Shown here piece by piece: positions 4,648 through 57,123 of a stretch of 64,000 nucleotides of DNA. Numbering within the stretch: the first letter of the stretch is position 1; every line of letters starts with the position of its first letter. The notes beneath the pieces are model-generated. The model searched no databases. It saw only the letters and a program-made list of their open reading frames with translations, and was not told where the DNA came from. This DNA comes from Squalus acanthias (lineage: Eukaryota), in the NCBI GenBank assembly GCA_030390025.1, contig CM059435.1, positions 101,122,001-101,186,000 of the forward strand, read 5' to 3'. The position numbers and the translations under genes were made by a program.

Positions 4648-6970
4648 AAATCTTTATTCGATGTTTTCACAATGTCTGGGCGCTGTGTTTTAGTAAGGTT
4701 GTGCGACGATTTACAGAGAGGTATAGAACGATAAAGACTCGCAAGTGTAATGTCAGTGTGGGGTTAGCTCTACTGTACGCTATCTATAACACACTCTCTG
4801 CAACCCCAGTACAGAGTTGCAAAGTGTAATAGTTGTGATACGGTTTCATATTTTCACAGCTAATAAATTTGGATAAATACAAATATTCAAAATTCTAGCT
4901 GCAAAATGGTCTAATTCTAGGACTGGAAGCAAGTAGCCTGTGTTTCGACTATTTCCGTAAAACGTTTGCTGTTCCTAATTTAGTTTACTGCATTGCCATC
5001 CACTGTCAACAGATTGTTAACATTTCCGATGCACCAGTGGCTTGAGGAACCCGAAAGTGGAAAGGTAAAACCAGAAAGGATCACATGCCGAATATATAAA
5101 CCGGCTTTAAACAGGGTAGTTGCAGACTTTACTGAAAAGGTTTGGCGAGTGGCGGTACTATATTATTTTATAATGTGTAAGACAACGCGTCTGTTTTGTT
5201 ATATACACATTATACTGATACTCCTAGATTAAAACATAGCAGGAGTCAAGACTTAATTCCCCCACTTCATTGCTCCAGCAATATCCCTGAACCCTAGTGT
5301 CAGAATTGTACAACCATCTTACAGCAGGCTGATATTTCCATTTCAGCAACCATCTCAGGGTGCATTCACACTGCAGGTACTGCAGTTCGGGTTCCAGCAT
5401 GGCAGAGCCGACTTTAGGTTGCCTGGCTCCTGTCTGGCTGGTACTGTACCAATCTTGACCAGAAGATATAGGCGTGGGCAGAGCTCTCTCCCAACAGTTA
5501 AAAACTCAGAAATCTAACTTAGAAAGCGGGGAGGGAGGAATCTTCACTCTCCAAACATTTAAATCAAGGTTAGTTGGATTTAGGGGGTGAGGGTACTTTG
5601 TCAACCAGATTTGACACCACAATGGATTTGCAGTGTGAAGCAAAGCTGTGTGATACCAGCCTACCAGGAAGTCTTACTCGCCTTTGCTCTGGATACACTG
5701 CCAGCTTAGCATGGTTGCTGAGCCAATATCGCTTCGCACCAACTTTAAACTTGCAGTGTAAATTCACTGTAATGGGCTTCTGTCTAGTAATGTCAACTAC
5801 TGGAAATTTCAACGGCAGTTTGTGCCATCCTCTGGTTTTCACTGGGATCTGGATTGAAAGGGCAGAAATTTCTGATGCCCACACTATTGGCAAAACCTGG
5901 CATGGAGGTTTATCAGCAAACCGTGGGTGCATTGCCTGTGATTTACTGTCCATTGATATCAATAAATAGAAAAACTTGAGCAAAGCACCTGTAATTTTCT
6001 GATGTCATTATCAGAAGCTGAACTGGAGCCCAAGCCCCAGGTGAATTCTTTAGAACACGAATCTCAAAAGTGTCTTGTAAATGTCACAATATCTGTCAGT
6101 TCTTCTGTTACAGCAAGTATGTATCAGCATTACAGTCAGGGTCCCTAGAATTCTGCGCCACACCAAAGCTAATTTATAGTACAGTTATATCTGCAAACAT
6201 GCACAATTTGAGCAATTACAATTTTCTTTAATGTCTGACATTTGGTTTCGAATACCATCCCCTGATTTGATTGACTACCTGAATAGTTGATATGCATTGA
6301 CATCCAATACCACATTTCATAGAATCATAAAATCTTACAGCCCAGAAGGAGGTCATTCGGCCCATCATGTCTGTGCTGGCTCTTTGAATGAGCTATCCAA
6401 TTAGTCGCACTCCCCTACTCTTTCCCCAGAGCCCTGCAAATTTTTCCCCTTCAAAGTATTTATCCAGTTCCCTTTTGAAAGTTATTATTGAATTTGCTTT
6501 CACCACCTTTTCTGGCAGTGCATTCCAGATCATAACAACTCGCTGCATAAAAAAAATTCTCCTCATGTCACTTCTGATTCTTCTGCCAATTACCTTAAAT
6601 CTGTGTCCTCTGGTTACCGACCCTTCTCTTTATTTACCCTATCAAAACCTTCATGATTTTGAACCTCTCTATCAAATCTTCTCTTAACCTTCCCTGCTGT
6701 AAGGAGAACAACCCCAGTTTCTCTAGTCTCTATGACATAGCTGAAATCCTTCATCCCTGGTACCATTCTAGTAAATCTCCTCTGCACCCTCTCTAAGGAA
6801 TTGACATCCTTCCTAAAGTGTGGTGCCCAGAATTAGCCACAATACTCCACCTGGAGGCTAACCAGTGTTTTATAAAGGTTTATGATGCGGAGATGCCGGT
6901 GTTGGACTGGGGTGGACAAAAGTGAGAAGTCGCACAACACCAGGTTATAGTCCAACAGTTTTATTTGAAA

Positions 6971-7008
6971 TCACAAGCTTTCGGAGCGGCTGCTCCTTCG
7001 TCAGGTGA
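6971..7008 (-). ncRNA. Minimal type I hammerhead ribozyme (A1 left arm)
   Basis: Reverse strand: UCAC CUGACGA A GGAGC-agcc-GCUCC GAAA GC UU GUGA. Confidence 0.8.
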
Positions 7009-7091
7009 AGTGAAGAAATACAAATGGGCACAGCATATATAATTGAGAGGTCGCACAACACCAGGTTATAGTCCAACAGTTTTATTTGAAA

Positions 7092-7129
7092 TCACAAGCT
7101 TTCGGAACTATCGCTCCTTCCTCAGGTGA
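7092..7129 (-). ncRNA. Minimal hammerhead ribozyme (A2 left arm)
   Basis: Reverse strand: UCAC CUGAGGA A GGAGC-gaua-GUUCC GAAA GC UU GUGA. Confidence 0.78.
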
Positions 7130-7795
7130 AGTAAATTGGATACAGAATCGTCAGAGCATATATAGATGGAAAAAAAAGCATGTGTACTTTACAATTGCAG
7201 ACCAATAAATTAAATCATCCTGACTATCTGCCGAGGTGTGATAAAGTTAATTAAGTCAGCCAGGAAGGTACCACATCAAAAGACATAGCAAGATACAACT
7301 GAGACAATGAGGTGAAGTCGCAGGGGTTCTAACGTGTCAAAAGCTGCCGTCTGTATGTAAAACGAAAAGCTTTAAAAAAAAAAAATTTACTTTTTTACTG
7401 GGAAAATTTTTACTTTTTTACTGGGAATCACATCTGTGAACAAGCTAACGACGACTCGAGTCCGGATCACGTCATGTATCGTGACATAAACCCAAGATCC
7501 CGATTGAGACCGTCTTCATGAGTGCAGAACTTGGCTATCAGTTTCTGCTCGATGATTTTGCGTTTTACATACAGACGGCAGCTTTTGACACGTTAGAACC
7601 CCTGCGACTTCACCTCATTGTCTCAGTTGTATCTTGCTATGTCTTTTGATGTGGTACCTTCCTGGCTGACTTAATTAACTTTATCACACCTCGGCAGATA
7701 GTCAGGATGATTTAATTTATTGGTCTGCAATTGTAAAGTACACATGCTTTTTTTTCCATCTATATATGCTCTGACGATTCTGTATCCAATTTACT

Positions 7796-7833
7796 TCACC
7801 TGAGGAAGGAGCGATAGTTCCGAAAGCTTGTGA
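7796..7833 (+). ncRNA. Minimal hammerhead ribozyme (A2 right arm)
   Basis: tcac ctgagga a ggagc gata gttcc gaaa gc tt gtga. Confidence 0.78.
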
Positions 7834-8158
7834 TTTCAAATAAAACTGTTGGACTATAACCTGGTGTTGTGCGACCTCTCAATTTTGTCCACCCCAGTCC
7901 AACACCGGCATCTCCGCATCACAGCATATATAGACAGAGATCAATGCCTGTGCAGAGAACAATGTCAGAAGACTACAGTTAATCTTTCTGACTGCCCTTT
8001 ATCACACCTCGGCAGAGAGATTTGATTGCCGTGATTGTCTCTCTGCCGAGGTGTGATAAAGGGCAGTCAGAAAGATTAACTGTAGTCGTCTGGCATTGTT
8101 CTCTGCACAGGCATTGATCTCTGTCTATATATGCTGTGCCCATTTGTATTTCTTCACT

Positions 8159-8196
8159 TCACCTGACGAAGGAGCAGCCGCTCTGAAAGCTTGTGA
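8159..8196 (+). ncRNA. Minimal hammerhead ribozyme (A1 right arm)
   Basis: tcac ctgacga a ggagc agcc gctct gaaa gc tt gtga (G-U wobble at base of stem II). Confidence 0.75.
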
Positions 8197-9017
8197 TTTC
8201 AAATAAAACTGTTGGACTATAACCTGGTGTTGTGCGACTTCTCACTTTTATAAAGGTTTAGCGTAACTTCCTTGCTTTTGTATTCTATGCCTCTATTTAT
8301 AAAGCCAAGGATCCTGTATGCCTTTTTAACAGCCTTCTCAACTTGTCCTGCCACCTTCAAAGACTTGTGACTTCACTCCCAGGTCTCTTTTTTCCTGCAC
8401 TCCCTTTAAAATTGTACCACTTAGTCTATAGTCCCTCTACTCATCCTTCCTACCAAAATGAATCACTTTGCACTTCTCTGCATTAAATTTCATCTGTCAT
8501 GTGTCTACCCATTTCACCAGCCTGCCTATGGCCTCCTGAAGTCTGTTACTATCCTCCTCTCTGTTTACTACATATCTGAGTTTCCTGTCATCTGTAAACT
8601 TTGAAATTTGCCCTGTATACCCAAGTCCAGGTCATGAATATATATCAAAAAGAGCAGTGGTCCCAACACTGACCCCTGGGGAACACCACTGTATACTTCC
8701 CTGTAGTCTGAAAAAACAACTGCTCACCACTACTCTCTGCTTTCTGCCCCTTAGCCAATATGTATCCAAGTAGCTACTGCCCCCTTAATCCCAAGGGCTT
8801 TAATTTTGCTAACAATATAACAATCTCTCAACTAAATTACTGAATTTACACATCAGTTGCGTGTTTTTTTGTCTGATGTGGAGTGCATACACTTTTCCCG
8901 CATGGGCACATCCATATACCTAAAGCTAGAGAACTTAGGAGCAGGTTGGCGAGATCCAATGCTTACTGATCCTCAAGTGTGTGTAGAGGCCTTGCCGGAG
9001 TTTAATCAACTAAAACA

Positions 9018-9200
9018 GCACAGCTCATCAGAAGGAGACCATTTGGCCCATCGTGCCTGTGCCAGCTCTTTGAAAGAGCCATCCAATTAGTCGCACTGCC
9101 CTGCTCTTTCCCCATAACCCTGCAAATGTTTCCACTTCAAAGTATTTATACAGTTCCCTTTTGAAAGTTATTATTGAATCTGCTTTCACCACCCTTGCAA
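9018..9200 (-). mobile_element. CR1 3'-end fragment
   Basis: Near copy of 6335-6515 (gagccatccaattagtcgcac...cccttttgaaagttattattgaat). Confidence 0.8.
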
Positions 9201-12200: not shown

Positions 12201-12491
12201 ACCCCTCATTCTTCTATACTCCAGGGAATATAGGCCTAGTCTACTCAATCTCTCCTCATAGGGCAATCCCCTCATCCCAGGAACCAGTCTAGTGAACCTT
12301 TGTTGCACCCCCTTTAAGGTAAGTATGTCTTTCCTTAGGTAAGGAGACCAGAACTGTACACAGTATTCCAGGTGTGGCCTTACCAATGCCCTATATAATT
12401 GTATGATGTGGAGATGCCGGCGTTGGACTGGGGTGGACAAAAATGAGAAGTCGCACAACACCAGGTTATAGTCCAACAGATTTATTTAATT

Positions 12492-12529
12492 TTACAAGCT
12501 TTCGGAGCTATCGCTCCTTCGTCAGGTAA
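12492..12529 (-). ncRNA. Minimal hammerhead ribozyme (B left arm)
   Basis: Reverse strand: UUAC CUGACGA A GGAGC-gaua-GCUCC GAAA GC UU GUAA. Confidence 0.8.
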
Positions 12530-13249
12530 GTTAGCAATGAGAGAATCTCCCAGAATTCACAATTTAAACCCAGACAAAATCTATTCACATTATTCGCTAC
12601 AACAAAGAGCACAGCCAAGACAATGAGATGTGTCCCAGGGGGTCCAGCGTGTCAAACCACCTGCTGGCTGCATATCCTGTCAATTTGTGTTCTTGTGTTT
12701 TTTAAAAAAAAAACAAAAAAAAACAAAAAAAACACCTGGGAAGACCGGCCATGATGTCAAGTCACGTTCTGTATCGTGACATGAACCCTAACGGACACCG
12801 CGCAACAATCGCCAGGCAGGAGGATTGCCTCCCAGTCGGGGAACACTTCAGCAGCCAGGGGCATTCAGCCTCGGATCTGCGGGTAAGCGTTCTCCAAGGC
12901 GGCCTTCGAGATACACGACAGCGCAAAATCATAGAGCAGAAACTGATAGCCAAGTTCCGCACTCATGAGGATGGCCTCAATCGCGATATCGGGTTCATGT
13001 CACGATACAGAACGTGACTTGACATCATGGCCGGTCTTCCCAGGTGTTTTTTTTGTTTTTTTTTGTTTTTTTTTTAAAAAACACAAGAACACAAATTGAC
13101 AGGATATGCAGCCAGCAGGTGGTTTGACACGCTGGACCCCCTGGGACACATCTCATTGTCTTGGCTGTGCTCTTTGTTGTAGCGAATAATGTGAATAGAT
13201 TTTGTCTGGGTTTAAATTGTGAATTCTGGGAGATTCTCTTATTGCTAAC

Positions 13250-13287
13250 TTACCTGACGAAGGAGCGATAGCTCCGAAAGCTTGTAA
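13250..13287 (+). ncRNA. Minimal hammerhead ribozyme (B right arm)
   Basis: ttac ctgacga a ggagc gata gctcc gaaa gc tt gtaa. Confidence 0.8.
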
Positions 13288-15377
13288 AATTAAATAAATC
13301 TGTTGGACTATAACCTGGTGTTGTGCGACTTCTCATTTCTATATAATTGTAGTAAGACTTCTTTGCTCTTGTACTCTAATCCCTTTGTAACAAAAGCTAA
13401 CATACCATTTGCTCTCCTAATTGCTTGCTGTACCTGCATGTTAACTTTCTGTGATTCATATACAAGGACATCCAGATCCCTCTGAATGCAAACATTTCCC
13501 AATCTCTCAATATTCAAAAAATATTCTGATTTTTTGTTTTTCCAACCAAAGTGGATAACTTCACACTTCCCCACATTGTATTCCATTTGCAATGTTTTTG
13601 TCCACTCCGTCAACCTGTCTATATCTCTTTGCAGCCTCTTTGTGTCCTCCTCACAGCTTACTTTCCCACCTAACTTTGTATCATCAGCAAACTTGGATAT
13701 GTTACACTCAGTCCCTTCATCTAAATCATTAATATAGATTGTAAATAGCTGAGACCCAAGCACTGATCCTTGCGGTACCCCACTAGTTACAGCCTGCCAA
13801 CCTGAAAAAGTCCTGTTTATTCCTACTCTCTATTTTCTGGTAATTTAAGGTAATTGGCAGAAGAACCAGAGGATTACATTACATAGGATTACATAAGATA
13901 TACAGCACAGAAACAGGCCATTTGGCCCAACCAGTCCATGCCGGCGTTTAAGCTCCACTTGAGCCTCCTCCCGTCTTTCCTCATCAAAATCTATCAGCAT
14001 AATCTATTCCCTTCTCCCTCATATGCTTGTCTAGCCTCCCCTTAAATGCATCTTCAACCACTCCCTGTGGTAGCGAGTTCCACATTCTCACCACTCTTTG
14101 GGTAAAGAAGTTTCTTCTGAATTCCCTATTGGATTTCTTGGTGACTATCTTATATTGATGGCCTCTAGTTATGTTCTTCCCCACAAGTGGAAACATTCTC
14201 TCTGTATCCACTCTATCAAAACCTTTCATAATTTTAAAGACCTCTATTAGGTCACCCATCAGCCTTCTTTTTTCAAGAGAAAAGTGACCCATCCTGTTCA
14301 TCCTTTCCTGATATGTATACCCTTGCATTTCTGGTATCATCCTTGTAAATCTTCTCTGCACCCTCTCCAGTGCCTCTATATCCTTTTTATAATATGGCAA
14401 CCAGAACTGCATGCAGTACTCTAAGTGTGGTCTAACCAAGGTTCGATAGAGGTTTAGCATAACTTCCCTACTTTTCAATTTTATACCCCTAGAAATAAAC
14501 TCTAGTGCTTGGTTTGCTTTTTTTATGGCCTTGCTAACCTGTGTCACTACTTTTAGTGATTTGTGTATTTGTACTCCGAAATCCCTTTGTTCCTCTACCC
14601 CACCTAGACTCGCACCCTCCAAGTAATAAGTGACCTCCCTATTCTTCCTACCCAAATGTACTACCTCACATTTATCTGTGTTGAATTTCATTTGCCAATT
14701 ATATGCCCATTCTGCAAGTTTATTAATGTCTTCCTGTAATTTGTTGCAGTCCTCCTCAATATTGACTAACCACCCCCCCCCCCCCACCAATTTGGTGTCA
14801 TCCGCAAATTTAGAAATTGTGTTTTTGATTCCAAAGTCTAAATCATTAATGGAAATTGTGAACAACAGTGGTCCCAGCACTGATCCTTGTGGAACACCAC
14901 TACCCACCTTCTGCCACTGTGAATAGCTACCCTTTACCCCGACTCTGCGCTTTCTGTCTTGAAGCCAGCTAGCTACTTGTCCCCTGACTCCGCATTCTCT
15001 GACCTTGCTCATCAGTGTATTATGGAGTACCTTATTGAAGGCCTTTTGAAAATCTAGATAAATTACATCTACTGCATTGCCATTGTCTACTCTCTCTGTT
15101 ACCTCTTCAACAAATTCAATTAGGTTGGTCAAGCAAGACTTTCCCTTTTGAAATCCATGCTGAATATTCCTTATATTTTTGGTTTCTAGATGTTCTTCTA
15201 TTTTCTCCTTTAGTAGGGATTCCATTATTATTCCTACCACCGATGTTAAGCTGACTGGTCTATAATTCCCTGGACAAGTTCTATCCCCCTTCTTGAATAT
15301 AGGTATTACGTTAAATAAAAACAGAAAATGCTGGAGATACTCAGCAGGTCAGGCAGCATCTGTGAAGAGAGAAACAG

Positions 15378-15414
15378 AGTTAACATTTCAGGTTGATGAC
15401 CTTTCGTCAGAACT
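15378..15414 (-). ncRNA. Minimal hammerhead ribozyme (C left arm, two substitutions)
   Basis: Reverse strand: AGUU CUGACGA A AGGUC-auc-AACCU GAAA UG UU AACU. Confidence 0.65.
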
Positions 15415-16674
15415 GGAAAAAAGCAGGAAATGGAACAGATTTTTAAGCACGTGTAGGAGCTGGGAAAGGGGGGAGGGGATGAAAGAACAAAAGGGAAGGT
15501 CTGTGATAGGATAGAAGGCAGGAGAGGTTAAGAGACATTAAGAGACATTAAGAGATATTCAAGGCAAAAGGAGATGGTAATGGGACAGGTTAAGAAACAA
15601 AAGATGGCTCTAGATGAAGTGTAAATTGCGCTGGCAGAATGAAAGACAGCTGCCATGTGGGAGAGAAGAAAAGAAAACACAAACAAACAAAAAAAAAGTG
15701 TGGAAAAAAATATACATGATAGAGGCCAAGGTTATGATCTGAAATTGTTGAACTCTATGTTGAGTCCAGAAGGCTGTAAAGTGCCTAATCAAAAGATGAG
15801 GTGCTGTTCCTCGAGCTTACGTGGAACAATGTAAGAGGCCTAGGATGGTGAAGTCTGAGTGGGAGTGGAGCGGAGAATTAAAGTGACAGGCGACCGGAAG
15901 CTCGGGGTCCCCCTTACGGACTGAACAGAGGTGTTTCGCAAAGCGGTCACCCAATCTGCGTTTGGTCTCCCCAATGTAGAGGAGACCGCATCGTGAGCAG
16001 CAAATACAGTATACTAAATTGCAAGAAGTACAAGTAAATCGCTGTTTCACCTGGAAGGGGTGTTTGGGGCCCTGGACAGTGGGAAGGGGGGAGGTATAAG
16101 GGCATGTGTTGCATCTCCTGCGCTTGTACGGGAAGGTGCCGGGTGAAGGGGAAGGGTTGTTGGGGGTGATAGAGGAGTGGATTTACTCCGAGCTTCCAGT
16201 CGCCTGTCACTTTAATTCTCCGCTCCACTCCCACTTGGACCTCACCATCCTTGGCCTCTTACATTGTTCCACTGAAGCTCAACGTAAGCTCGAGGAACAG
16301 CACCTCATCTTTCGATTAGGCACTTTACAGCCTTTTGGACTCAACATAGAGTTCAAAAATTTCAGATCATAACCTCGGCCCCTATCATGTATATATTTAT
16401 TTTACACTTTTTTTTTGTTTGTGTTTTCTTTTCTTCATTCCCACATGGCAGCTGTCTTTCATTCTGCCAGCGCAATTTACACTTCATCTAGAGCCATCTT
16501 TTGTTTCTTAACCATCTCCTTTTGCCTTGAATATCTCTTAATGTCTCTTAATGTCTCTTAACCTCTCCTGCCTTCTATCCTATCACAGACCTTCCCTTTT
16601 GTTCTTTCATCCCCTCCCCCCTTTCCCAGCTCCTACATGTGCTTAAAAATCTGTTCCATTTCCTGCTTTTTTCC

Positions 16675-16711
16675 AGTTCTGATGAAAGGTCATCGGCCTG
16701 AAACGTTAACT
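16675..16711 (+). ncRNA. Minimal hammerhead ribozyme (C right arm)
   Basis: agtt ctgatga a aggtc atc ggcct gaaa cg tt aact. Confidence 0.78.
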
Positions 16712-19700
16712 CTGTTTCTCTCTTCACAGATGCTGCCTGACCTGCTGAGTATCGCCAGCATTTTCTGTTTTTATTTCAGATTTCCAGCATCTGCTGTATT
16801 TTCTTTTTGTATAGGTATTACATTAGCTATCCACCAGTCTTCTGGCACTACACCTTTTTTGAACAAATTATTAAATATGTGTAGTAATGCCTCTGCTATC
16901 TCCTCCCTAGATTCTTTTAAAATGCGTGGATGCAATCCATTCGGACCAAGGGTTTTATCCTCTTTGAGTTTGATTAGTTTATTTAATATATCCCCTCTTT
17001 TTATTTTAAATGCACTTATCTCATTACTAATCTGATCATCCAATGTCATGTCCACCTGTTTTATCTCCCTGGTAAATACTGACGCAAAATAATTATTTAA
17101 TATTTCTGCCATCTCTCTATCATTACCTGTGGTATTATCCTGTCTATCCCTTAATGGCCCTATTCCCATCCCAACCTTCCTTTTTTTATTGATGTGCCTG
17201 TAAAATATTTTACTATTTTGTTTTATGTTCCTTGATAATTTAATTTCATAGTTCCTCTTTGCCTTCCTAATTGTTTTTTTGACTTCTCTCCTAATCTCTT
17301 CATATTCTCCCTTATCATGCTCTCCCCTGCTGTCCATGTGCTTAATGTATGCCTCTTTCATTGCCCTCAATTGTTCCCTTATGGCTTTATTCATCCATGG
17401 AGTGTCATTAGTGTTTAGTTTGTTCTTTCCTTTTAGTGGAATATATTGTTCCTGCACTCTGTTGAACACCATTTTAAATGTTTCCCATTGCTGTTCTACA
17501 TCGTTGTTTGCCAATATTGTTGCCCATTTTATTTTCCCAAGTTCTATTCTCAGCCCCTCAAAATCAGCTTTTCTCCAATCTATTAACCTAGTTTTTGTCA
17601 TACTTATGTCTTTCTCAATTATCATCTTAAAACATATTATATTATGGTCACTATTGCCTAGATATTCCCCTACTTTTACTTCTCTTATCTGCTCTGGTTC
17701 ATTCCCCATTACTAGATCCAATAGTAAATCCTCCTTTGTTGGGCTTTTTACATATTGGGTTAGAAAGGAGTCATGTACACATTGTAGGAACTACATTCCC
17801 TTATCCCCTTTACCTACCTCTTCTGTCCAATTAATATCGGGGTAGTTGAAATCACCCATGATTATTATTCTATGTTTTTTTACTCGTTTCCCTAATTTGT
17901 CTGCATATTTCATCCTCCACCTCCCTTCCACTATTAGGTGGTCTGTAGACTACACCTATTAATGTGATTGATCCTTTATTATCATTTATCTCTATCCATA
18001 TGGATTCTATTTCTGTCTTGCTGATAGCTGCATCACTTTTTCTACTGCCATTATGTTATCCCTAATAAGTACAGCTACTCCACCTCCCCTTTTTCCCTCT
18101 CTATCTTTTCTAAATATGTTATACCCTGCAATGTTTAATTCCCAGTCCTGATTTTTCTGTAGCCATGATTCAGTAATCCCTACTATGTCTGGTTCCTCAC
18201 AACGCATGATTGCCTGCAGCTCCCCTGTTTTATTATGGACACTGTGTGCATTGCTGTACAGATAGTTTAACTAATTTTTAATAAGATTTCCTCTCACTTT
18301 ACATTTAACCATCTTTTTATACTCCTGTTCTATAACTCTATTTATTTCCTGCCTATCAATATCCTCCCTTACTTTATTCTTTCCTATGCTCTCTTTTCCT
18401 GTTTTGTTTATATTTAGGCTGGTTACATTTCTTGTAGATCCCTCCCCCCATCTTACTAGTTTAAAGCCTTTGCCACCTCCCTATTTACCCTTTCCGCTAG
18501 GACACAGGTCCCATCCCGGTTCAGGTGGAGCCTGTCCCATCGGTACAGCTCCTTCCTGTCCCAGAACTGGTGCCAGTGTCCCATGAAAAGTAACCCCGCT
18601 TTCCCACACCAGCCCTTTAGCCACGTGTTAATTCTCCTGATCTGTCTGAGAGATGAGGAGAAATTTTTTGACTCAGCGAGTTGTTATGATCTGGAATACA
18701 CTGCATGAAAGGATGGTGGAAGCCGATTCAATAGCAACTTTCAAAAGGGAATAGGATAAATACTTGAAAAGGAAACATTTGCAGTGCTATGGGGAAAGAG
18801 TAGGGGAGTGCGACTAATTGGATAGCTCTTTCAAAGAGCCGGCACAGTCATGGTGGGCCGAATGGCCTCCTTCTGGGCTGTAAGATTCTTTGATTTTTAT
18901 GACCAGGATGAACTACATTCATTGTAGAAGCACGGGCATTATTCAGTATGTCCGAATGTAATTCGGGTGTACTTACATGAATAATTACAAAACTCGCAGT
19001 TAGAATAACAGCAATACCAATGGTAATGGATTAATCGCGTGAGTTTTATACAATTTGTTGCGGGTATTGATGTAAATATGATTGCAGCACATATTTATCT
19101 CCTCGTGATGCTTCCGATTGGGAGGTAAATCCAGCGTTAAGCCAGCAGTCAGATACTTCAATGCTCCTCAATTTGTTTACAGACCTTGTTCGGGAGACTC
19201 CCAAACTTTTCCTACAAGGGGCATGTGAACTTGTTTTCGTGCTTAATAGAGAACATATTTTGCAATATTTCACGATATTATCACAACAATGATTACTAGG
19301 TCGATTTTTAAATATTAAGTATAGAGATCTTCCTGTAAACACTTAAAAATTGCAAAGTGAAGGATATCTTAACTATTATCTATCCTTTCGAGAAAGGTCA
19401 GGCAAAACGTCAGGATGAGATGGCGTTATCTTCTGAAATCATTTAAAATTGTGTTCCCCCTATTTTCATTAGCAATAAATAGTAATTTCAGGTTACTGCA
19501 GTTTGGGGGAAATAAATGTATTGCAATTTAAATTGCTTTTGATAAACTGGTCGTTCCTATAGCAATTGTAATTTGAAAATGGCAGTCAGAACGGGAATGA
19601 CCAAATCATGCCCAATTCATCAAAAGTTCCCTTTCATAAATCATGAATTTAGTAACTTGCAATGTAATATTCCGGTGGCAGCGGCAGGGCCGAAGATCCA

Positions 19701-31202: not shown

Positions 31203-33533
31203 CATAGAAACATAGAAACATAGAAGATAGGAGCAGGAGTAGGCCATTCGGCCCCTCTAGCCTGCTCCACCATTCAATGCGATCATGGCTGATCATCCAA
31301 ATTCAGAACCCTGTCCCTGCTTTCTCCCCATATCCCTTGATCCCTTTAGCCTTAAGAAATATATCCAACTCCTTCTTGAATATATTTAATGAATTGGCCT
31401 CTACTGCCTTCTGAGGTAGAGAATTCCACAGGTTCACCAATCTCTGGGTGAAGAAATTCCTCCTCATTTCTGTCCTAAATGGCTTACCCCTTATCCTTAG
31501 ACTGTGACCCCTGGTTCTGGACTCCCCAACCATCGGGAACATCTTCCTGCATCTAGTCTGTCCAGTCCTGTCAGAATTTTATAAGTTTCAATGAGATCCC
31601 CTCTCATTCTTATAAACTCCAGCGAGTATAAGCCCAATCGACCCAATCTCTCCTCATACGTCATTCCTGCCATCCCAGGTATCAGCCTGGTGAATCTTCG
31701 CTGAACTCCTTCCATGGCAAGAACCTCCTTCCTCAGATAAGGTGACCAAAACTGCACACAATACTCAAGATGTGGTCTCACCAAGGCCCTGTACAACTGC
31801 AGCAAGACATCCTTGTTCCTGTACTCAAACCCTTTCACTACGAAGGCCAACATACCATTTGCCTTCTTAACCATCTGCTGCACCTGCATGCTTACCTTCA
31901 GCGACTGGTGCACATAGACACCCAGGTCTCGTTGCACTTCCCCTTCTCCCAATCTATTGCCATTCAGATAATAATCTGCCTTCCTGTTTTCGACACCAAA
32001 GTGGATAACCTCGCATTTATCCACGTTGTATTGCATCTGCCATGCTTCTGCCCAATCACCCAACCTGTCCAAATCATCCTGGAGTTTCTCAGCATCCTCC
32101 TCACAGCACACACGCCCACCCAGCTTTGTGTCGTCTGCAAACTTGGAGATATCACATCTAGTTCCCTTGTCTAGATCATTAATATATATTGTGAATAGCT
32201 GGGGTCCAAGGACTGATCCCTGCGGTACCCCACTAGTCACTGCCTGCCACTCGGAAAAAGACCCGTTTATTCCAACTCTTTGCTTTCTGTCTGCCAACCA
32301 GTTCTCTATCCAAGTCAATACCTTGCCCCCAATCCCATGTGCCTTAACTTTACACGCTAATCTCTTATGCGGGACCTTATCGAAAGCCTTTTGAAAGTCC
32401 AAATACATCACATCCACTGGTTCTCCCTTATCTATTTTACCAGTTACATCCTCAAAAAATTCCAGTAGATTAGTCAAGAACGATTTACCTTTTGTAAATC
32501 CATGTTGACTTTGTCCGATCCTGTCACTGTTTTCCAAGTGCTCTGCTATTACATTTTTTACAATGGACTCTAGCATTTTCCCCACTACCGATGTCAGTCT
32601 GTAATTCCCCGTTTTCTCTCTACCACCTTTTTTGAATAGTGGGGTAACATTAGCTACCCTCCAATCCATGGGTATTGTTCTATATATGCTTTGACGATTC
32701 TGTATCTCCTCACTTCACCCGACGAAGGAGTTGTAACTCCGAAAGCTTGTGATTTAAAATAAAACTGTTGGACTATAACCTGGTGTTGTGCGACCTCTCA
32801 ATTTTGTCCACCCCAGTCCAACACCGGCATCTCCGCATATTGTTCCAGATTCCATTGAATGTTGGTGAATGATCAGCAATGCATCTACTATTTCTAGGGC
32901 CACTTCCTTAAGTACCCTAGGATGTAGATTATCAGGCCCTGGGGATTTATCGGCCTTCAATCCCATCAATTTCCCTAACACCATTACCCTACAAATACTG
33001 ATTTCTTTCAGTTCCTCCCTTTAATCAGACCCTATGTTCCCCGACATCTCTGGGAGGTTATTTGTGTCCTCCTTTGTGAAGACAGAACCAAAATATGTAT
33101 TTAATTGGTCTGCCATTTCTTTGTTCCCCATTATAAGTTCCCCTGATTCTGACTGCAAGGGACCTACGCTTGACTTCACCAATCTTTTTCTCTTCACATA
33201 TCTATAAAAGCTTTTACAGTCAGTTTTTATGTTCCCTGCAAGCTTCCTCTCATATTCTATTTTCCCCTTCTTAATTAATCCCTTTGTCCTCCTTTGTTGA
33301 ATCCTAAACTGCTCCCAATCCTCAGGTTTACTGCTTTTTCTGGCCAATTTATATGTCCTCTCCTTGGATCTTATGCTATCCCTAATTTCCCTTGTTAGCC
33401 ACGGTTGAGTCACCTTTTTTGTTTTATTCTTATGCCAAACTGGGATGAACAAATTCTGTAGTTCATCCATGCGGTCTTTGAATGTTTGCCATTGCCTATC
33501 CACCGTCAACCCTTTGAGTGACATTCCCCAATC
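31203..33533 (-). mobile_element. 5'-truncated CR1 LINE ORF2 with solo PLE arm inserted
   Basis: 390-aa RT ORF 31497-32669 plus ORFs 33021-33524 and 31303-31542; (catagaaa)n tail at left. Confidence 0.95.
32681..32837 (+). mobile_element. Solo PLE family-1 3' arm (element F) with mutated hammerhead (32715-32752)
   Basis: Homologous to A2 right arm including tail; TSD tattgttc at 32673-32680 and 32838-32845; core reads CCGACGA, stem II ggagt-tgta-actcc. Confidence 0.88.
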
Positions 33534-35900: not shown

Positions 35901-36582
35901 GTTGACCTGAAATAAAAATAGAACGTACACAAAGCCAGCCAATCAACATCTCAAAAAACCAAAACAGATTAATATTTTGTGCATAATTCTTCATCAATTT
36001 TACATTTTCTTTGTCTTTTTTGGTGTACCATTTTGATCAAGCACCAAAGCCCCAATTTTAATTTGAAGCGGGAATCGGGTGGGTTGGGGCTCAGGCAGGT
36101 GGTAAACAGTCCTGACCTTGTCAGTGTGAGGCTCTGGAGGTTTTAACTCATGAACCTCATCTGCATGCTACCAGTCAGTTTCCTGCCTGAAACCAACGGG
36201 AAGCTTGCAGCTGGCCTGCTGGCAGAGCACAATGTCAAATGACAAGAGGCAGATGATGGGGACCAAAGAAACGGTCCCTGGCACTCAGGTAAGTCACTTT
36301 AAGGTGGTTTCGGGAGGGTCTCGCGATCGCTGAGGGAACCCCAAAGCAGGGGAGGCCTAAATGCTTCTTACGGAGCCTGGAGGAGCATAAGTGCTCCTCC
36401 TAGCCCCACAAGGAATGTAAAAAAGAAAGTAAAAAGACTTGCCTTTTTGGCCCTCTTCTTGCCTGGATCCTTTTCCTACTAATACAAAAGCAAAATACTG
36501 CGGATGCTGGAAATCTGAAATAAAAACAGAAGATGCTGGAAATACTCAGCAGGTCAGGCAGCATCTGTGGAGAGAGAAACAG

Positions 36583-36619
36583 AGTTAACGTTTCAGGTCG
36601 ATGACCCTTTGTCAGAACT
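36583..36619 (-). ncRNA. Hammerhead ribozyme with core mutation (D left arm)
   Basis: Reverse strand: AGUU CUGACAA A GGGUC-auc-GACCU GAAA CG UU AACU; G8>A, probably inactive. Confidence 0.6.
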
Positions 36620-37392
36620 GGAAAAAGCTGGAGATGGAACAGGTTTTTAAGCAAGTGCTGGGTCAGGGAAAGGGGGGAGGGGAGGAAAGAACAAAAGGGA
36701 AGGTCTGTGATAGGATGGAAGGCAGGAGAGATTAAGAGACATTAAGAGAGATTAAAGATGGTACTGGGACAAGTTAAGAAACAAAAGATGGCTCTAGATG
36801 AAGTGTAAATGGCACTGGCAGAATGAAAGACAGCTGCCATGTGGGAGAGACCATTGGGGAGACCAAACACAGATTGGGTGACCGTTTTGCAGAACACCTT
36901 CGTTCAGTCCGTAAGGGTGACCCCGAGCTTCCGGTCGCCTGTCACTTTAATTCTCCACTCCATTCCCACTCAGACCTCACCATCCTCGGCCTCTTACACT
37001 GTTCCAATGAAGCTCAATGTAAGCTAGAGGAACAGCACCTCATCTTTCGATTAGGCACTTTACAGCCTTCTGGACTCAACATAGAGTTCAACAATTTCAG
37101 ACTATAACCTCTGCCCCTTTCCTTTTTGTTCATTTATTGTTTTTCTGTCTCTCACATGGCAGCTGTCTTTCATTCTGCCAGTGCCATTTACACTTCATCT
37201 AGAGCCATCTTTTGTTTCTTAACTTGTCCCATTACCATCTCCTTTTGCCTTGCACCATCTCTTAATCTCTCTTAATGTCTCTTAATCTCTCCTGCCTTCC
37301 ATCCTATCACAGATAGGATGTTCTTTCCTCCCCTCCCCCCTTTCCCTGCCCCTGCACTTGCTTAAAAACCTGTTCCATCTCCAGCTTTTTCC

Positions 37393-37429
37393 AGTTCTGA
37401 CGAAGGGTCAGCGACCTGAAACGTTAACT
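37393..37429 (+). ncRNA. Minimal hammerhead ribozyme (D right arm)
   Basis: agtt ctgacga a gggtc agc gacct gaaa cg tt aact. Confidence 0.8.
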
Positions 37430-40400
37430 CTGTTTCTCTCTCCACAGATGTTGCCTGACCTGCTGAGTATTTCCAGCATCTTCTGTTTTTATTCCTTTTC
37501 CTACTAGATGGACTTGGCAGGAAAGGCACAACCGCTTCTCCACTCAGGCCTATAGTTAAAATTGCAGTCGCACCCCGATTATATCATCAGAGACAATCTC
37601 CATATTTGAAGAAGGAACCTACGGTTTCCAGCAGGTTTCCTTTTCACCTACTCAAAAGAGCAGGATAAAACTGTAGCATGTGGTACATCGGCGAGTGAGT
37701 CCCACGGGTAATTTTAACTGCTTGCTTGACCAGGTTAAAATCGCTCTCTAAATACATGTATTTAACTGAGAAAAAAATTCAAGGGTGAAAAAAATGGAAA
37801 AGCTAAAAAATTAAATAAAAATCTCATCGTCATTCCGTATGAATTGTTCAACTGGTTGGTGTCATGGATTGAATAGATAATACAAGCAGATGCATGGCTG
37901 TGATTCAACCCATGACAGCATCAGTGGAGCAGTCCTTTAAGAACGGGAAAGCATAGCATAGTGAGAACTGTAAATGTTTATTTTAAATTGCTTTTTAAAT
38001 TCAGTTTTCAGTGAGCAATGCTACTACTTACCAGAATTTTAAAAATGAACTGTTTACAGTATAAGTAGAGATTTACTTATAATAGTTACCATATTTTCTT
38101 TGAAACTTTATATGCAATGGTCTTTTTATATCTACAGTTTGTTCCAATGAGTTATTTTGAGATTGAGTGCTGCTTTGCAATGTATATGGTTGTGGGAGGA
38201 GTACATGTTTCACCAGAGTCCACTTTATAACTGCAAGATTATCATCAGTGTTAGATATCATCTGACGCTGCATAGCTAAAAAAGCAAAAATAGCAACATA
38301 ATATGTTAAAATACACATAAGTAATAATCGGACTCCTTAGCATCTTAAACAAGAAAGAGAAGGAACGATAGAAGATAAGACACATGAGAAAAACCAAGTT
38401 TCCTGCTGAAACATGTCCTTCATTTTTATCCTAAACTAACAGATTTGTTTACAATAAGGTGACACTGATAGTTTATGCTAATCAAGAGTACAGCTCCAAA
38501 GTCAACTGCAGGGCTGGAATCTATGAGACTGTACGGATGGAATTTTAGTCTACGACAGTCACTAAAGTAAATCTGACATTTTCAAGGCACAAATCTTCCA
38601 TAACAAAACAGACAGCATCTTGGCACCTGATGCGAGAGTTGTACCAATGGCAGAGATTATTTGTAGGAAAGTGAAAGAAGTTAAACTAACTCTGTAAGGT
38701 TTTCATATTCTAGAAAAGCTGTTTTATTTGTCCTCTTTCTTCCTCAAGCCTGCAATAACTGGTTCTCCTAATTACCCTTCCTCCACATATGGAAAAATAT
38801 CTGGCCTTTGCTCTGTATTTCTCCATGTCACAGATGAGATTAGTAACGCCAAGTGTGGCAGAAACGTATATACTGTAATGTAGCACCACCCGTAAACCTT
38901 CATTTCAAGTTCATCAATGGTTGGTCAAATAAGCCATGGAGGTTACTTTAATAAAGTAGCTGAGGAAAAAAGCTCTTGTAATGTTGCATCGTACAGTACT
39001 TGTAAGAGCTTATAGGTGAAGGTTCACTGATAAAAATAAATGAACTATAATTAATTCTGAGCAGTCAACAGAAAAATACTACTCTACCTTTTCTAGGTCA
39101 AATAGTAAATCAATTTTCATTATCGTTGTGAAAGTCACCAAAAATTAATTTCAAGCCTGAGCCTAATTACAAAAAAGGCATTTAACCTTAGCCAAATTCT
39201 TCACCCTAAAAAGATACAATAAACTCAGCCCAAAATGATCAAAATGAGTCAATTAAATTCTGGAATTCTAGAATATTAGAATAGGAAGCTGCATATTACA
39301 GTTGAATGGACATTCCCAATTTCAGAGGTTGATCTCCTGCTCTCTTGTGGTGGAGGGCCTCTTGAAATTGTCAGAAACCAGCACTTTCCATGAGTACAGT
39401 TGTCGCTTGATCATAAAAAGAAACAAAAGCTATTCAGATAATATTCAGCTACAGGATTACCAGGGAATCTGTTTTTTGCTTTTGAATCATAAAAAGGAAT
39501 TCTGATGAAGAATTTAATTAATTTCATCAATATATATTTTCCCATACACAGCAGAGAATATAAATGCTTCCTCTTAACAGATGGTAAACTCGTCTTTTCT
39601 TTATTAGTGAAGATAATTAGATCAGTTGTCCATTGACATTATCCCACTGGCAAAGGCATTCATCAACGATTAAAGCCAGTTGGTAAGGAGCCAAGCCACA
39701 GAAATGTATTACAGGTCATGATTTTAGGCCTCCTGATTTTAGATTTTAACCCAAAGATACCTGATAATTACCACCTAAAAGATGAATTCCAAAATAAGAT
39801 TTTAACTCGATAAACTCAAAAATGTTATTTCCAAGCCGAATTGTCATAAAATAAAAAGACTAGTCTATTTTTGATACTGACCAATAATCAAAATTGCAAT
39901 CTCATTTGGGTGATTGAACAGTAAACAGGGCATAAACTATTCCTGACATTTTGTTGTTTAAATCAATACAATGCAAAATGGAGGTGGCGGGTCATTAAGC
40001 TGATTCATGTGACTTTTTTTAAGAGAAATCAGGGCACCAATAAATTCATCATTTGCCTTGTTTTGTAGTCAGACATCTGTAAACATCTAAGTGATAATTT
40101 CTCGACTTTGCATTACCAGCAGGGAGCTTTACCCTTTGGTAGTGCATATTGGAAATTTGGCAAATATGCCTGGAACCTTAATATCCAAATATCATAAAAA
40201 AATAAAAACATTTACTTACAATGCAACATCAGTGTCCATAACAGCATAGGCGTCACAGGTCTTGGAACTGCACTTGAGTGTCACATTTAATTCTATCAGC
40301 GCATGCATTAGACAGCCACTGCTCTAGCTGGCACAATGATGGTATTCAGCCTGACAATGTAAAATGAGTTTGCATCGCCTTAAGGAGGTGGATTTGTTCA

Positions 40401-54955: not shown

Positions 54956-56003
54956 TCTTAAGAGGTCACCCACACTCAGGTATAGATAGTGGTCCAGGTA
55001 AATTAGGAATTGGGGACAGGAATACTCAAAGGTCATTCTTTAATCTTTTTTAGAAAAGGAACCAAGTTATGAACAAGTGTATAATTAAACCTCCATCTAA
55101 AAGCTGGGAAGTTTAGAGAAATGGTAAAGAGGACCATTTTTAAACCATTCTAATTTTCTGTTTATTCCTACATAATTCTGAATGGGTCAGTATTTACTTC
55201 TCTTAAATCTCCCTATTCATTGATATTTTTTCTAACATAAATTATTATGTTATAGAATTGTAGACAATTCAGTTCCTCGTGAGCAATCTGTTTTCTAGAT
55301 TTTGTGCTTGGGTAAACGTTCACAATGCATGCTGGGCAATGCAGATTTTCCACAGCAATTCTAATTTCACTTTCAACTATTTTGACCAGCCTCGAGCAAT
55401 TATCTAACCCTCCAGCCTGCTACCTCCATACAGAACCATTGCCAATTACCTCTCTATTCATATACGCCCCTCCAACCTGCGGTCTGCTCATTTCAGGACT
55501 TCAAAGATTGGAATGATGGCCCACTCCGAAACGCATGGAGAGGGGGAAGGATTTTTCAAATTGCTACAGCATGAGGCTGCAAATTCCTGCCCTTTGTAGG
55601 ATTACTTCACTGTCTGGGTGAGAGAGTATGTTGACAGTCATCACGATCAGGGATAGAAGCAGGAAATTTAGAATTGTACACACTTCTTCCAAAATTCGCC
55701 ACATCCCTCCCCTGAGGCCCAAACATTGCTCCCCCAGAAAATTTATACATTAAAAATGGTGCATTTCACAATTGATAGACCTTCAATCTAAAAAAAAATG
55801 GAAAAATAAATAACATACTAACCAGACCATCAATTCTCCAAAAGCTATCTGAAAAATCACCATTCCTCTGTTCAGTTGTAGTCCCCTTCCCTTCACAGAG
55901 AGCCTCTTTCACAAAGGAATTCTTCAATTCTGATCTCTGTCCTAATTTACAAAAATGAGAAGTCGCACAACACCAGGTTATAGTCCAACAGATTTATTTA
56001 ATT

Positions 56004-56042
56004 TTACAAGCTTTCGAAGCAGTTCGCTCCTTCGTCAGGTAA
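56004..56042 (-). ncRNA. Minimal hammerhead ribozyme (E left arm)
   Basis: Reverse strand: UUAC CUGACGA A GGAGC-gaacu-GCUUC GAAA GC UU GUAA. Confidence 0.78.
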
Positions 56043-56807
56043 GTTAGCAATGAGAGAATCTCCCAGAATTCACAATTTAAACCCAGACAAAATCTATTCA
56101 CATTATTCCCTGCAACAAAGAGCACAGTCAAGACAATGAGTTGTGTCCCAGGGGGTCCAACGTGTCAAACCACCTGCTGGCTGCATATCCTGTCAATTTG
56201 TGTTCTTGTGTTAGCCTTTTAAAAAAAAAAACACCTGGGAAGACCGGCCATGATGTCAAGTCACGTTCTGTATCGTGACATGAACCCGATATCGCGATTG
56301 AGGCCATCCTCATGAGTGCGGAACTTGGCTATCAGTTTCTGCTCTATGATTTTGCGCTGTCGTGTATCTCGAAGGCCGCCTTGGAGAACGCTTACCCGCA
56401 GATCCGACTGGGAACACTTCAGCAGCCAGGGGCATTCAGCCTCGGATCTGCGGGTAAGCGTTCTCCAAGGCGGCCTTCGAGATACACGACAGCGCAAAAT
56501 CATAGAGCAGAAACTGATAGCCAAGTTCCGCACTCATGAGGATGGCCTCAATCGCGATATCGGGTTCATGTCACGATACAGAACGTGACTTGACATCATG
56601 GCCGGTCTTCCCAGGTGTTTTTTTTTTTAAAAAGGCTAACACAAGAACACAAATTGACAGGATATGCAGCCAGCAGGTGGTTTGACACGTTGGACCCCCT
56701 GGGACACAACTCATTGTCTTGACTGTGCTCTTTGTTGCAGGGAATAATGTGAATAGATTTTGTCTGGGTTTAAATTGTGAATTCTGGGAGATTCTCTCAT
56801 TGCTAAC

Positions 56808-56846
56808 TTACCTGATGAAGGAGCGAACTGCTTCGAAAGCTTGTAA
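56808..56846 (+). ncRNA. Minimal hammerhead ribozyme (E right arm)
   Basis: ttac ctgatga a ggagc gaact gcttc gaaa gc tt gtaa. Confidence 0.78.
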
Positions 56847-57123
56847 AATTAAATAAATCTGTTGGACTATAACCTGGTGTTGTGCGACTTCTCATTTTTG
56901 TCCACCCCAGTCCAACGCCGGCATCTCCACATCATGACCTCTAATTTACAAAGGCACTGTCTCCCTCTGTTCCCAAGATCAATGATATACTTTTCCCCTC
57001 TACCTCTTCTCCCAGCTCAAAGAAGCAATGTTTGCCATCTAACCACTTCTCCAATTCATAGAGACATTCTCCCTCTCTGATGGTCTACTTATTGACAATC
57101 TCAGCTGAAGCTTGTAACTAGCA

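What the first reader, a model, noticed from the sequence alone, without database searches (positions are those of the whole stretch)
6883..56940. System of fold-back Penelope-like elements: two 3' ends joined head-to-head, a hammerhead in each arm, a one-sided tail and a different turn-point each time
Seen: six palindromes (A1 6883-8245, A2 7042-7919, B 12404-13338, C 15314-16809, D 36482-37492, E 55954-56940) from two families with no obvious nucleotide similarity share one architecture. Both outer ends are PLE 3' ends, one arm extends 33-41 nt further than the other, TSDs are 12-16 bp, and the centre holds a variable amount of GIY-YIG C-terminus. B and E are the same subfamily yet turn at different points. 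Copy-specific variants occur in both arms of one copy, e.g. stem II loop gata in B versus gaact in E, and the A-tract pattern in B. Known: PLEs encode RT + GIY-YIG, have pseudo-LTRs in direct or inverted orientation with a short tail, and carry minimal hammerheads. Inference: the palindrome is built anew at each insertion, by priming from both target strands at two fixed RNA positions about 35 nt apart and joining at microhomology (e.g. cgtt at 7561). Here that is the dominant product (6 of 7 insertions), not an occasional one.
Basis: partly seen in the sequence, partly recalled or inferred. Interest (0 to 1): 0.8.

Follow-up and report, generated by a model that had tools for sequence, protein, structure and literature searches.

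The report
Shark Penelope-like insertions primed from both ends
Six mirror-image repeats in a cartilaginous-fish genome are short, dead copies of a known class of jumping gene (Penelope-like retrotransposons) in an arrangement already described for that class, but their junctions add modest new clues that each copy was written into the genome from both ends of a staggered DNA cut.

Summary
Six head-to-head palindromes have 12-16 bp TSDs, a minimal hammerhead in all 12 arms, a 34-44 nt tail on one arm only, and different turn-points. One solo copy makes 6 of 7. They are 5'-truncated Neptune-type Penelope-like elements (PLEs) of a cartilaginous fish, and RT+GIY-YIG relatives exist. They are not an assembly artefact and not a fixed MITE.

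The architecture is published as the typical PLE structure (PMC3846280, PMC8557442, PMC2377424). Two RT start sites bounding the tail, and nicking and extension of both strands, were shown in vitro (PMC11167929).

What this window adds:
(1) In 4 of 6 copies the tailed arm is the shorter, so neither arm is a subset of the other. This excludes plain fold-back of one cDNA.
(2) 10 of 11 scorable outer junctions show target/element microhomology at near-fixed positions.
(3) A TA|G motif occurs at 5 of 13 TSD edges.

Best reading: both target 3' overhangs prime cDNA at the two start sites, and the ends are joined at variable points. Microhomology at the turn is clear only in E and A2. 'Dominant product' rests on n=7. 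Verdict: new member of a known kind, with a testable mechanistic clue.

The parts
6883..8245 (.). Palindromic PLE copy A1 (family 1), interrupted by A2. Tailed arm on the left (tail 6883-6921), 17-nt centre 8021-8037, no EN sequence. TSD 6868-6882 / 8246-8260. Inserted in a CR1/L2-type LINE remnant.
7042..7919 (.). Palindromic PLE copy A2, nested at the TATA-like motif of A1. Long untailed arm 7042-7564 (-) carries the GIY-YIG C-terminus (7473-7565). Short tailed arm 7561-7919 (+), tail 7884-7919. TSD 7029-7041 / 7920-7932.
12404..13338 (.). Palindromic PLE copy B. Short tailed arm 12404-12788 (-). Long untailed arm 12789-13338 (+) with a 75-aa EN C-terminus (12790-13014). TSD 12391-12403 / 13339-13351.
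15314..16809 (.). Palindromic PLE copy C (family 2). Long untailed arm 15314-~16179 (-) carries the Cys linker and the GIY-YIG domain (decayed, frameshifted). Short tailed arm ~16186-16809 (+), tail 16776-16809. TSD 15298-15313 / 16810-16825.
32681..32837 (+). Solo 5'-truncated family-1 3' end F with tail. Hammerhead core mutated. TSD 32673-32680 / 32838-32845.
36482..37492 (.). Palindromic PLE copy D (family 2). Short tailed arm 36482-36850 (-), tail 36482-36519. Long untailed arm 36851-37492 (+) with the EN C-terminus (36853-37101). TSD 36468-36481 / 37493-37506.
55954..56940 (.). Palindromic PLE copy E (same subfamily as B). Untailed arm 55954-56413 (-), tailed arm 56410-56940 (+), tail 56897-56940. 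The junction has a 35-nt skip at CCGA and a GGGA overlap. TSD 55942-55953 / 56941-56952.
6975..7004 (-). Minimal type-I hammerhead, A1 left arm (mirror copy 8163-8192 +)
7096..7125 (-). Minimal hammerhead, A2 left arm (mirror copy 7800-7829 +)
12496..12525 (-). Minimal hammerhead, B left arm (mirror copy 13254-13283 +)
15382..15410 (-). Minimal hammerhead, C left arm (mirror copy 16679-16707 +)
36587..36615 (-). Minimal hammerhead, D left arm, core mutated (mirror copy 37397-37425 + intact)
56008..56038 (-). Minimal hammerhead, E left arm (mirror copy 56812-56842 +)

Best explanation
These are dead, 5'-truncated insertions of two Neptune-type EN+ PLE families in a cartilaginous fish, made by two-ended target-primed reverse transcription. 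The GIY-YIG endonuclease nicks both strands of AT-rich DNA 12-16 nt apart, often at or near TA|G, which leaves two 3' overhangs (inferred from TSDs). One overhang primes cDNA at the upstream RT start site (a U-rich tract, giving the untailed arm). The other primes at a second start site about 35-40 nt further 3' (giving the tailed arm). Both cDNAs stop early at variable points and their 5'-truncation ends are joined by end-joining with 0-4 nt microhomology or filler. The result is a head-to-head palindrome with one tail and a new turn-point each time. The hammerhead in each arm is a by-product of copying the 3' end twice: only one is in sense on any transcript. Shown: the anatomy, fixed outer ends, microhomology at the outer junctions, locus-paired arms. 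Inferred: order of events, nick positions, end-joining. Not resolved: whether both primers use one RNA (a second RT following and displacing the first, which would explain why the tailed arm is the shorter) or two RNAs from one source.
For: (1) Neither arm is a subset of the other in A2, B, C and D: tailed/untailed lengths are 359/523, 385/550, 624/866 and 369/642, so each outer end needs its own RNA-templated start. (2) Outer ends are near-fixed: family-1 untailed ends fall at +14 to +16 of a common register and tailed ends at +50 to +53 (E +59); family 2 at 31-32 and 66-69. (3) 10 of 11 scorable element/target junctions have at least 1 nt microhomology, sum 20 against 7.1 for shuffled TSDs, P=0.0002 (2 of 13 junctions could not be scored). 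(4) Exactly one tail in 6 of 6, P=1/64 if each end chose its site independently at 50:50. (5) TA|G at 5 of 13 TSD edges, on either strand (4 of 12 counting A1 and B as one site; P about 3e-4 given an A end). (6) In vitro, anole Poseidon protein cleaves and extends both strands, starts RT at two sites that bound the tail, and is predicted to be a dimer (PMC11167929). (7) D has a blunt turn; B and C have filler bases.
Against: n is 6, in one window. The tailed-arm-shorter rule is 4 of 4 clear cases (P=0.06). E as it stands has the tailed arm longer (531/460) and fits only after a 35-nt deletion is inferred using B as a stand-in parent. A1 cannot be scored. The turn-points of A1 (17-nt loop) and of E as parsed (5-nt loop) are very tight, which fits fold-back. 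The homopolymer tract of B is identical in both arms, which fits DNA-templated copying. PMC11167929 saw no difference in start-site use between strands and did not link its result to inverted copies; it studied a Poseidon, not a Neptune. The TA|G motif was noticed after the fact and differs from the ATT motif reported there.
Confidence: 0.6

Rival explanations
1. Fold-back plus tail patch. The untailed cDNA is made first, folds back on an internal microhomology and copies itself. A short second cDNA primed at the tail site supplies only the tail and anneals to it.
For: It predicts outright that the centre belongs to the untailed arm (4 of 4, or 5 of 5 with E parsed). E's join is a TCCC/GGGA hairpin with a 5-nt loop. 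A1 has a 17-nt loop. Arms are 99.7-100% identical in the young copies A2, B and E, including B's T/A tract.
Against: Loops of 196-299 nt in A2, B, C and D have 2 nt or less shown microhomology; D is blunt. It still needs priming at both nicks, so it is a variant of the best explanation rather than an alternative to it.
Confidence: 0.22
2. Self-priming on an antisense template, as proposed for Adineta PLEs, with the tail arising from endonuclease resolution of the intermediate.
For: This is the published reading of head-to-head PLE palindromes (PMC3846280, section 11) and of the tail (PMC8557442). A TATA-like motif that reads both ways is present in A1, A2 and F.
Against: It does not by itself explain target/element microhomology at both fixed outer ends or the non-nested arms. 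Later in vitro data place RT starts at both tail boundaries on sense RNA (PMC11167929).
Confidence: 0.07
3. Insertions began as near-perfect palindromes. Present centres and arm identity reflect later central deletions and gene conversion between arms.
For: E carries a 35-nt microhomology-bounded skip at its centre, and C and D arms carry private deletions. Conversion would also make arms pair by locus.
Against: Random revision would not shorten the tailed arm in 4 of 4 long-centre copies. The youngest copies (A2, B) already have centres of about 200 nt. It does not explain how the palindrome or the tail arose. It may act as a modifier on top of the best explanation.
Confidence: 0.08
4. A fixed palindromic master (MITE-like or fold-back DNA element) copied as a unit, or an assembly or read fold-back artefact.
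For: Long terminal inverted repeats with TSDs look like this superficially. No reads were available to check.
Against: B and E have identical EN sequence (0 of 144 mismatches) yet different turn-points. TSD length varies from 12 to 16. Ends are asymmetric. Removing A1 or B restores contiguous LINE sequence (A1 empty site 88% identical over 244 nt to 11418-11661). A2 is nested in A1 with its own TSD. Arms of C and D have diverged 2-4%.
Confidence: 0.03

Closest known systems
EN+ Penelope-like elements with an inverted 5'-truncated copy and one-sided tail (D. virilis Penelope; Adineta vaga Pen2/Pen2a; general scheme in Craig et al. 2021)
   Same: Inverted 5'-truncated copy adjacent at the 5' end; head-to-head as the most frequent arrangement; inverted repeats that vary in size between copies; 30-40 bp tail at one end only; TSD (9-10 bp in Adineta); TATA about 20 bp before a TCACT initiator-like motif; 5'-truncated members flanked by inverted pLTRs (PMC3846280 sections 6 and 11; PMC8557442 and PMC2377424 passages).
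   Different: Here both arms are severely truncated, with no RT and no direct tandem pLTR, so the insert is a pure palindrome. TSDs are 12-16 bp. In the passages I read, no paper reports that the tailed arm is the shorter, quantifies outer-junction microhomology, or gives a nick motif for a Neptune element.
Poseidon of Anolis carolinensis (PAc) in vitro (Frangieh et al. 2024, PMC11167929)
   Same: Two internal RT start sites that bound the tail; both target strands cleaved and extended; AT-rich targets including its own pLTR; hammerhead just upstream; predicted dimer.
   Different: Different clade (no Cys linker). The paper reports an ATT cleavage motif and no strand difference in start site. 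The main text does not derive inverted copies from these activities (the word 'inverted' occurs once, for a primer block).
L1 twin priming and 'dual priming' (Meyer et al. 2010, PMC2837659)
   Same: The second-strand 3' overhang primes a second cDNA; the product is inverted and bounded by TSDs; the internal junction has little or no microhomology. Dual priming (two RNAs, both primed at their 3' ends) gives two 3' ends facing outward.
   Different: L1 twin priming copies non-overlapping parts of one RNA (inversion with deletion) and is a minority product. Here the same 200-580 nt are copied twice, from two fixed non-poly(A) start sites.
Non-LTR retrozymes (non-autonomous PLE derivatives; bioRxiv 10.64898/2026.07.22.740005)
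   Same: Short PLE pLTR-related units with type-I hammerheads in vertebrates, including a chondrichthyan.
   Different: Retrozymes are head-to-tail tandem repeats. These copies are head-to-head, carry EN remnants in 5 of 6, and cannot supply two sense hammerheads on one transcript.

Membership tests
EN+ Penelope-like element | C-terminal GIY-YIG endonuclease with the CCHH motif | tested here: met
   The C long arm hits PF01541 above the cut-off (23.3 versus 22.6 bits) and reads LVYCICCSRCGLLYIGET...H...H. B alone has no Pfam hit but is 92% identical to the C-terminus of P0061.
EN+ Penelope-like element | Telomerase-like RT in the same ORF | tested here: inconclusive
   No PLE RT remains in the window (tblastn of 13 relatives). 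Relatives with RVT_1 plus this EN exist: P0061, P0075, P0035. The actual parent copies could not be fetched and no RT phylogeny was built.
EN+ Penelope-like element | Minimal type-I hammerhead in the pLTR | tested here: met
   13 of 13 copy ends match the descriptor. In family 1, 70 of 70 cells pair and 2 pairs change on both sides (relatedness inflates the shuffle control). Rfam gave no hammerhead hit. Cleavage was not tested.
EN+ Penelope-like element | Direct or inverted pLTR with an optional 30-40 bp tail on one end | tested here: met
   6 of 6 are inverted with one tail of 34-44 nt; F is a solo with tail.
Neptune clade (versus Penelope/Poseidon) | CX2-5CXXC linker between RT and EN | tested here: met
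   C has the motif with its first Cys decayed (PYKRRRCNTC); relatives have it intact (P0005 PCNRRKCYTC; family-1 relative P0061 PCHSNLCKTC). Definition from PMC8557442. For family 1 the motif is seen only in relatives.
Neptune clade (versus Nematis) | RT phylogenetic placement | not tested
   Both clades have the linker. The preprint found Neptune and Poseidon widespread, including vertebrates, and did not list Nematis among its groups, so Neptune is the likely call.
MITE / fold-back DNA transposon | Fixed-length TSD, symmetric termini, and copies sharing one internal structure | tested here: not met
   TSDs are 12-16 bp, ends are asymmetric, and B and E turn at different points.
Non-LTR retrozyme | Head-to-tail tandem units, each with a hammerhead | tested here: not met
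   All paired copies are head-to-head.
L1-type twin priming product | Inverted and direct parts come from non-overlapping portions of one RNA | tested here: not met
   The arms overlap fully over 208-578 nt. It works like twin or dual priming but is not the L1 product.

The most novel reading that the evidence does not exclude
In shark Neptune elements the normal integration route is tandem twin priming on a single RNA. A dimeric RT-EN nicks both strands at TA|G-like sites 12-16 nt apart. One RT starts at the upstream U-tract; the other starts about 35-40 nt downstream and follows by strand displacement, so the same RNA segment is copied twice and the tailed arm cannot outrun the untailed arm. 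Alternative stems that pair the tail with sequence upstream of the first start site (seen in both families) present the two start sites. This would account in one mechanism for the tail, the inverted pLTR and its variable length.
Probability: 0.25. Interest if true: 0.7.

Novelty: new member of a known kind. Interest (0 to 1): 0.42.

Why it matters
How PLEs form inverted repeats and a one-sided tail is still called undefined in the field (PMC8557442), and the steps after initiation are unvalidated (PMC11167929). The architecture here is not new. But young, nearly undamaged shark copies give three countable rules that a genome-wide tally or a reconstituted assay can test directly: exactly one tail, tailed arm shorter, and microhomology at both fixed ends. 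If palindromes are the usual product in these genomes, they would also be a large source of hairpin RNA and unstable inverted repeats, and a trap for repeat annotators who would call them MITEs or microRNA hairpins (Rfam's top sub-threshold hits here were such).

Tried and rejected
- Rfam scan: 12 matches, all below gathering score, mostly miRNA models on the palindrome centres; no hammerhead family matched. Rejected as chance hairpin hits.
- Plain pattern search for the hammerhead found only 5 of 13; replaced by a descriptor.
- A mixed-family hammerhead alignment was misregistered after stem II, so pairs were counted for family 1 only.
- tblastn with 13 of 91 fetched relatives found no PLE RT and no further PLE copies in the window.
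- MFE folding of the 3' ends was not significant for family 1 (z -0.11, -0.36) and modest for family 2 (z -2.2, -1.75), so the tail-pairing stems remain a lead only.
- The direction of A1's 17-nt centre could not be assigned, since no parent is in the window.
- The literature search for PLE plus 'twin priming' gave 3 papers, none on PLE mechanism by title or abstract; PLE plus cryo-EM plus dimer since 2024 gave 3, none on PLE structure. The other searches surfaced no paper deriving inverted PLE copies from two-ended priming. The library lacks most subscription papers: Evgen'ev & Arkhipova 2005, Arkhipova 2006 and Pyatkov 2004 were not seen. PMC12910113 and PMC9977147 passages had nothing on this.
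- A supplement search of PMC11167929 for inverted/tail/palindrom found 0 hits in 3 text files; its figures (Fig. S2) were not visible and may bear on which arm carries the tail. Preprint supplements were closed.
- No eukaryotic DNA collection was available (genome contigs is prokaryotic and was not scanned; metagenome and viral contigs were closed), so genome-wide counts, parent elements and long-read support stayed unchecked.
- Structure prediction was not run, as it would not bear on the question.


Full report
1. Observation. Self-comparison of the window recovers all six inverted repeats at the stated coordinates, plus one solo 3' end at 32681-32837. TSDs are A1 15 bp, A2 13, B 13, C 16 (one mismatch), D 14, E 12 and F 8. 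Mirror arms are 96-100% identical by substitutions: A2 0/323, B 1/348, E 1/454, A1 3/208, D 7/318, C 22/578. Each palindrome has a tail on one arm only, 34-44 nt as bounded by the TSDs. Un-mirrored centres are 17 (A1), about 196 (A2), 202 (B), 278 (C), 299 (D) and 34 nt (E). A minimal hammerhead descriptor finds 13 motifs, one in each of the 12 arms and one in F, against 1 in 30 random sequences of the same size. The core is mutated in D-left and in F. In family 1 all 70 cells of stems I-III pair and two pairs change on both sides. Profile searches found no other copies, so 6 of 7 is correct for the window; the 95% interval is 0.42-0.996.

2. Not an artefact, not a fixed master. Removing A1 restores a LINE remnant that is 88% identical over 244 nt to another copy at 11418-11661, and removing B restores one 73% identical over 229 nt. 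A2 is nested in A1 with its own TSD. B and E have identical EN sequence (0 of 144 mismatches) but turn at different points. Arms pair by locus: among four-way informative columns, B/E gives 16 locus-type and 0 side-type or tail-type (8 of the 16 lie in the poorly aligned A/T tract); C/D gives 17 and 0. The tree of nine family-1 ends agrees. Because B and E differ at about 8 non-coding substitutions while their own arms differ at 1, these variants most likely belong to different source elements. They show that both arms came from one source, not that they came from one RNA molecule, and later conversion between arms is not excluded.

3. Identity. The long arm of C encodes a Cys linker and a GIY-YIG domain (PF01541 above cut-off). 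Its named relatives include skate, ray and shark proteins at 57-75% identity (60 hits of 97 candidates). The B fragment is 92% identical to the C-terminus of a 643-aa RT-containing Heptranchias perlo protein, and 70% to an 881-aa RT+EN protein (31 hits of 59 candidates). The host is therefore a cartilaginous fish. Both families have the CX2-5CXXC linker (family 1 only through its relatives), which marks Neptune/Nematis and is absent from Penelope/Poseidon (PMC8557442, passages). No PLE RT remains in the window. The families share no significant DNA similarity (best E 0.13) but their ENs are about 32% identical. A1 carries no coding sequence.

4. What the anatomy constrains. In A2, B, C and D the centre belongs to the untailed arm and the tailed arm is the shorter (359/523, 385/550, 624/866, 369/642). 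The short arm has a tail that the long arm lacks, and the long arm has a centre that the short arm lacks. One cDNA folding back on itself therefore cannot make these four. E looks like the exception (531/460). Using B as a stand-in parent, E's untailed arm follows the antisense to 56407, skips 35 nt between two CCGA, resumes for CTGGGA, and joins the tailed arm through GGGA. So before that skip the untailed arm reached about 9 nt further; this parse has a chance level of about 0.015 and depends on the stand-in. A1 cannot be assigned. The polarity is thus 4 of 4 clear cases (P=0.06) or 5 of 5 (P=0.03): suggestive only.

The outer ends are near-fixed in both families. 10 of 11 scorable element/target junctions share at least 1 nt with the target (sum 20 versus 7.1 expected, P=0.0002); two tailed ends could not be scored. 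The clearest are TTTT in A1 and TTTGT in E at the untailed end. Exactly one tail in 6 of 6 has P=1/64 if each end chose a start site independently. TSDs are AT-rich (64-87% versus 59% for the window), and 5 of 13 TSD edges read TA|G (4 of 12 independent; noticed post hoc). At the turn, microhomology is 4 nt in E, 2 nt shown in A2 (4 if the parent codon is CAA), none in D, and filler bases in B and C. In B a 6-nt match (ATGAAC) lies near the join if the parent encodes RMNGH as its relatives do; this is inference.

5. Mechanism. Best reading (0.6): staggered nicks on both strands leave two 3' overhangs; one primes at the upstream start site, the other at the tail-end start site; both cDNAs truncate and are end-joined. 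With the fold-back-plus-tail-patch variant (0.22), which also needs both nicks to prime, two-ended priming totals about 0.8. Antisense self-priming (0.07), post-insertion revision as the main cause (0.08) and MITE/artefact (0.03) are less likely. One RNA versus two cannot be told from the window. One-sided tails and the shorter tailed arm lean towards one RNA with a trailing RT; the tight turns of A1 and E fit either a trailing RT meeting a stalled leader or a fold-back.

6. Comparison with what is known. The arrangement is described as the typical Penelope structure in flies, fish and rotifers: an adjacent inverted pLTR, a 31-bp tail on one of the inverted pLTRs, 9-10 bp TSDs, 5'-truncated members flanked by inverted pLTRs, and head-to-head as most frequent (PMC3846280, passages and sections 6 and 11). 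Craig et al. state the same for several clades, with the tail often at one end only (PMC8557442, passages). Schostak et al. describe D. virilis copies with inverted repeats that vary in size by copy as the most frequent form (PMC2377424, two passages). Minimal hammerheads in pLTRs are from Cervera and de la Pena (PMC4209133, passages). Frangieh et al. showed two RT start sites bounding the tail, cleavage and extension of both strands, and a predicted dimer (PMC11167929, parts 1-3 of 4). L1 twin and dual priming are defined in PMC2837659 (passages). I also read passages of PMC8969392, PMC12910113, PMC9977147 and bioRxiv 10.1101/2024.12.14.628481, and parts 1-3 of 5 of bioRxiv 10.64898/2026.07.22.740005. 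In nine searches I found no paper that derives PLE palindromes from two-ended priming or reports tail/arm-length polarity. The key subscription reviews were not in view, so absence from print is not established.

7. Verdict. The feature is real and well spotted, but it is a set of truncated members of a known class in a known arrangement. What is fresh is a small set of countable rules from young copies that make the open question of PLE inverted-repeat formation testable. Novelty: new member of a known kind. Interest 0.42. Genome-wide prevalence, parent elements and read support stayed unchecked because no eukaryotic DNA collection was available.

Noticed in passing
window 3012-3500 (+) and 24299-24766 (+): Two myogenic bHLH first exons (Pfam Basic + HLH) in tandem; by recalled sequence and order they are Myf6/MRF4 and Myf5 (names from memory, not from a call). 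A1, A2, B and C lie between them.
   Followed up: partly
window 6868-6882 and 12391-12403: A1 and B, from different PLE subfamilies, are inserted at the same homologous base of two diverged CR1/L2-type LINE copies (empty sites align, TSD right edges coincide). This points to a real target preference.
   Followed up: partly
window 7029-7041: A2 is inserted at the TATA-like motif of A1, that is, into a related pLTR, as PMC11167929 suggests for PAc. A1, A2 and F have TATATA about 20-25 nt before a (T)CACTTCAC or TTACTTCAC initiator-like motif next to the hammerhead; B/E and C lack it at that spacing.
   Followed up: partly
window 7220-7260 versus 7990-8020 / 8038-8070: A 26-nt segment (92% identical) lies in opposite orientation relative to the hammerhead in subfamilies A1 and A2. 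In A2 it is bounded by a 6-bp inverted repeat, so it may be a micro-inversion.
   Followed up: partly
tails and upstream 3' ends, e.g. window 7830-7919 and 16708-16809: In both unrelated families the tail can pair with sequence between the hammerhead and the untailed end (8-9 bp stems; 0-12 of 400 shuffles per copy), with a mutually exclusive alternative stem. Possible RNA switch for the two start sites; overall folding z-scores are weak.
   Followed up: partly
window 12871-13014 versus 56264-56407 / 56442-56585: B and E are identical over 144 nt of EN coding sequence but differ at several 3' non-coding sites and in hammerhead stem II, suggesting several recently active source elements with fast-changing non-coding ends.
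   Followed up: partly
proteins P0062, P0069, P0077, P0080, P0082, P0086-P0089, P0091: Many predicted shark host-gene isoforms (XRCC5, septin 5a, FAM210B and others) include this PLE endonuclease fragment: either annotation error or exonisation of these insertions.
   Followed up: no
window 44862-44955: An old, imperfect hairpin (76% self-complementary) with no hammerhead and no similarity to the PLE arms.
   Followed up: no
window 45952-46096: A 73-bp tandem duplication at 97% identity.
   Followed up: no
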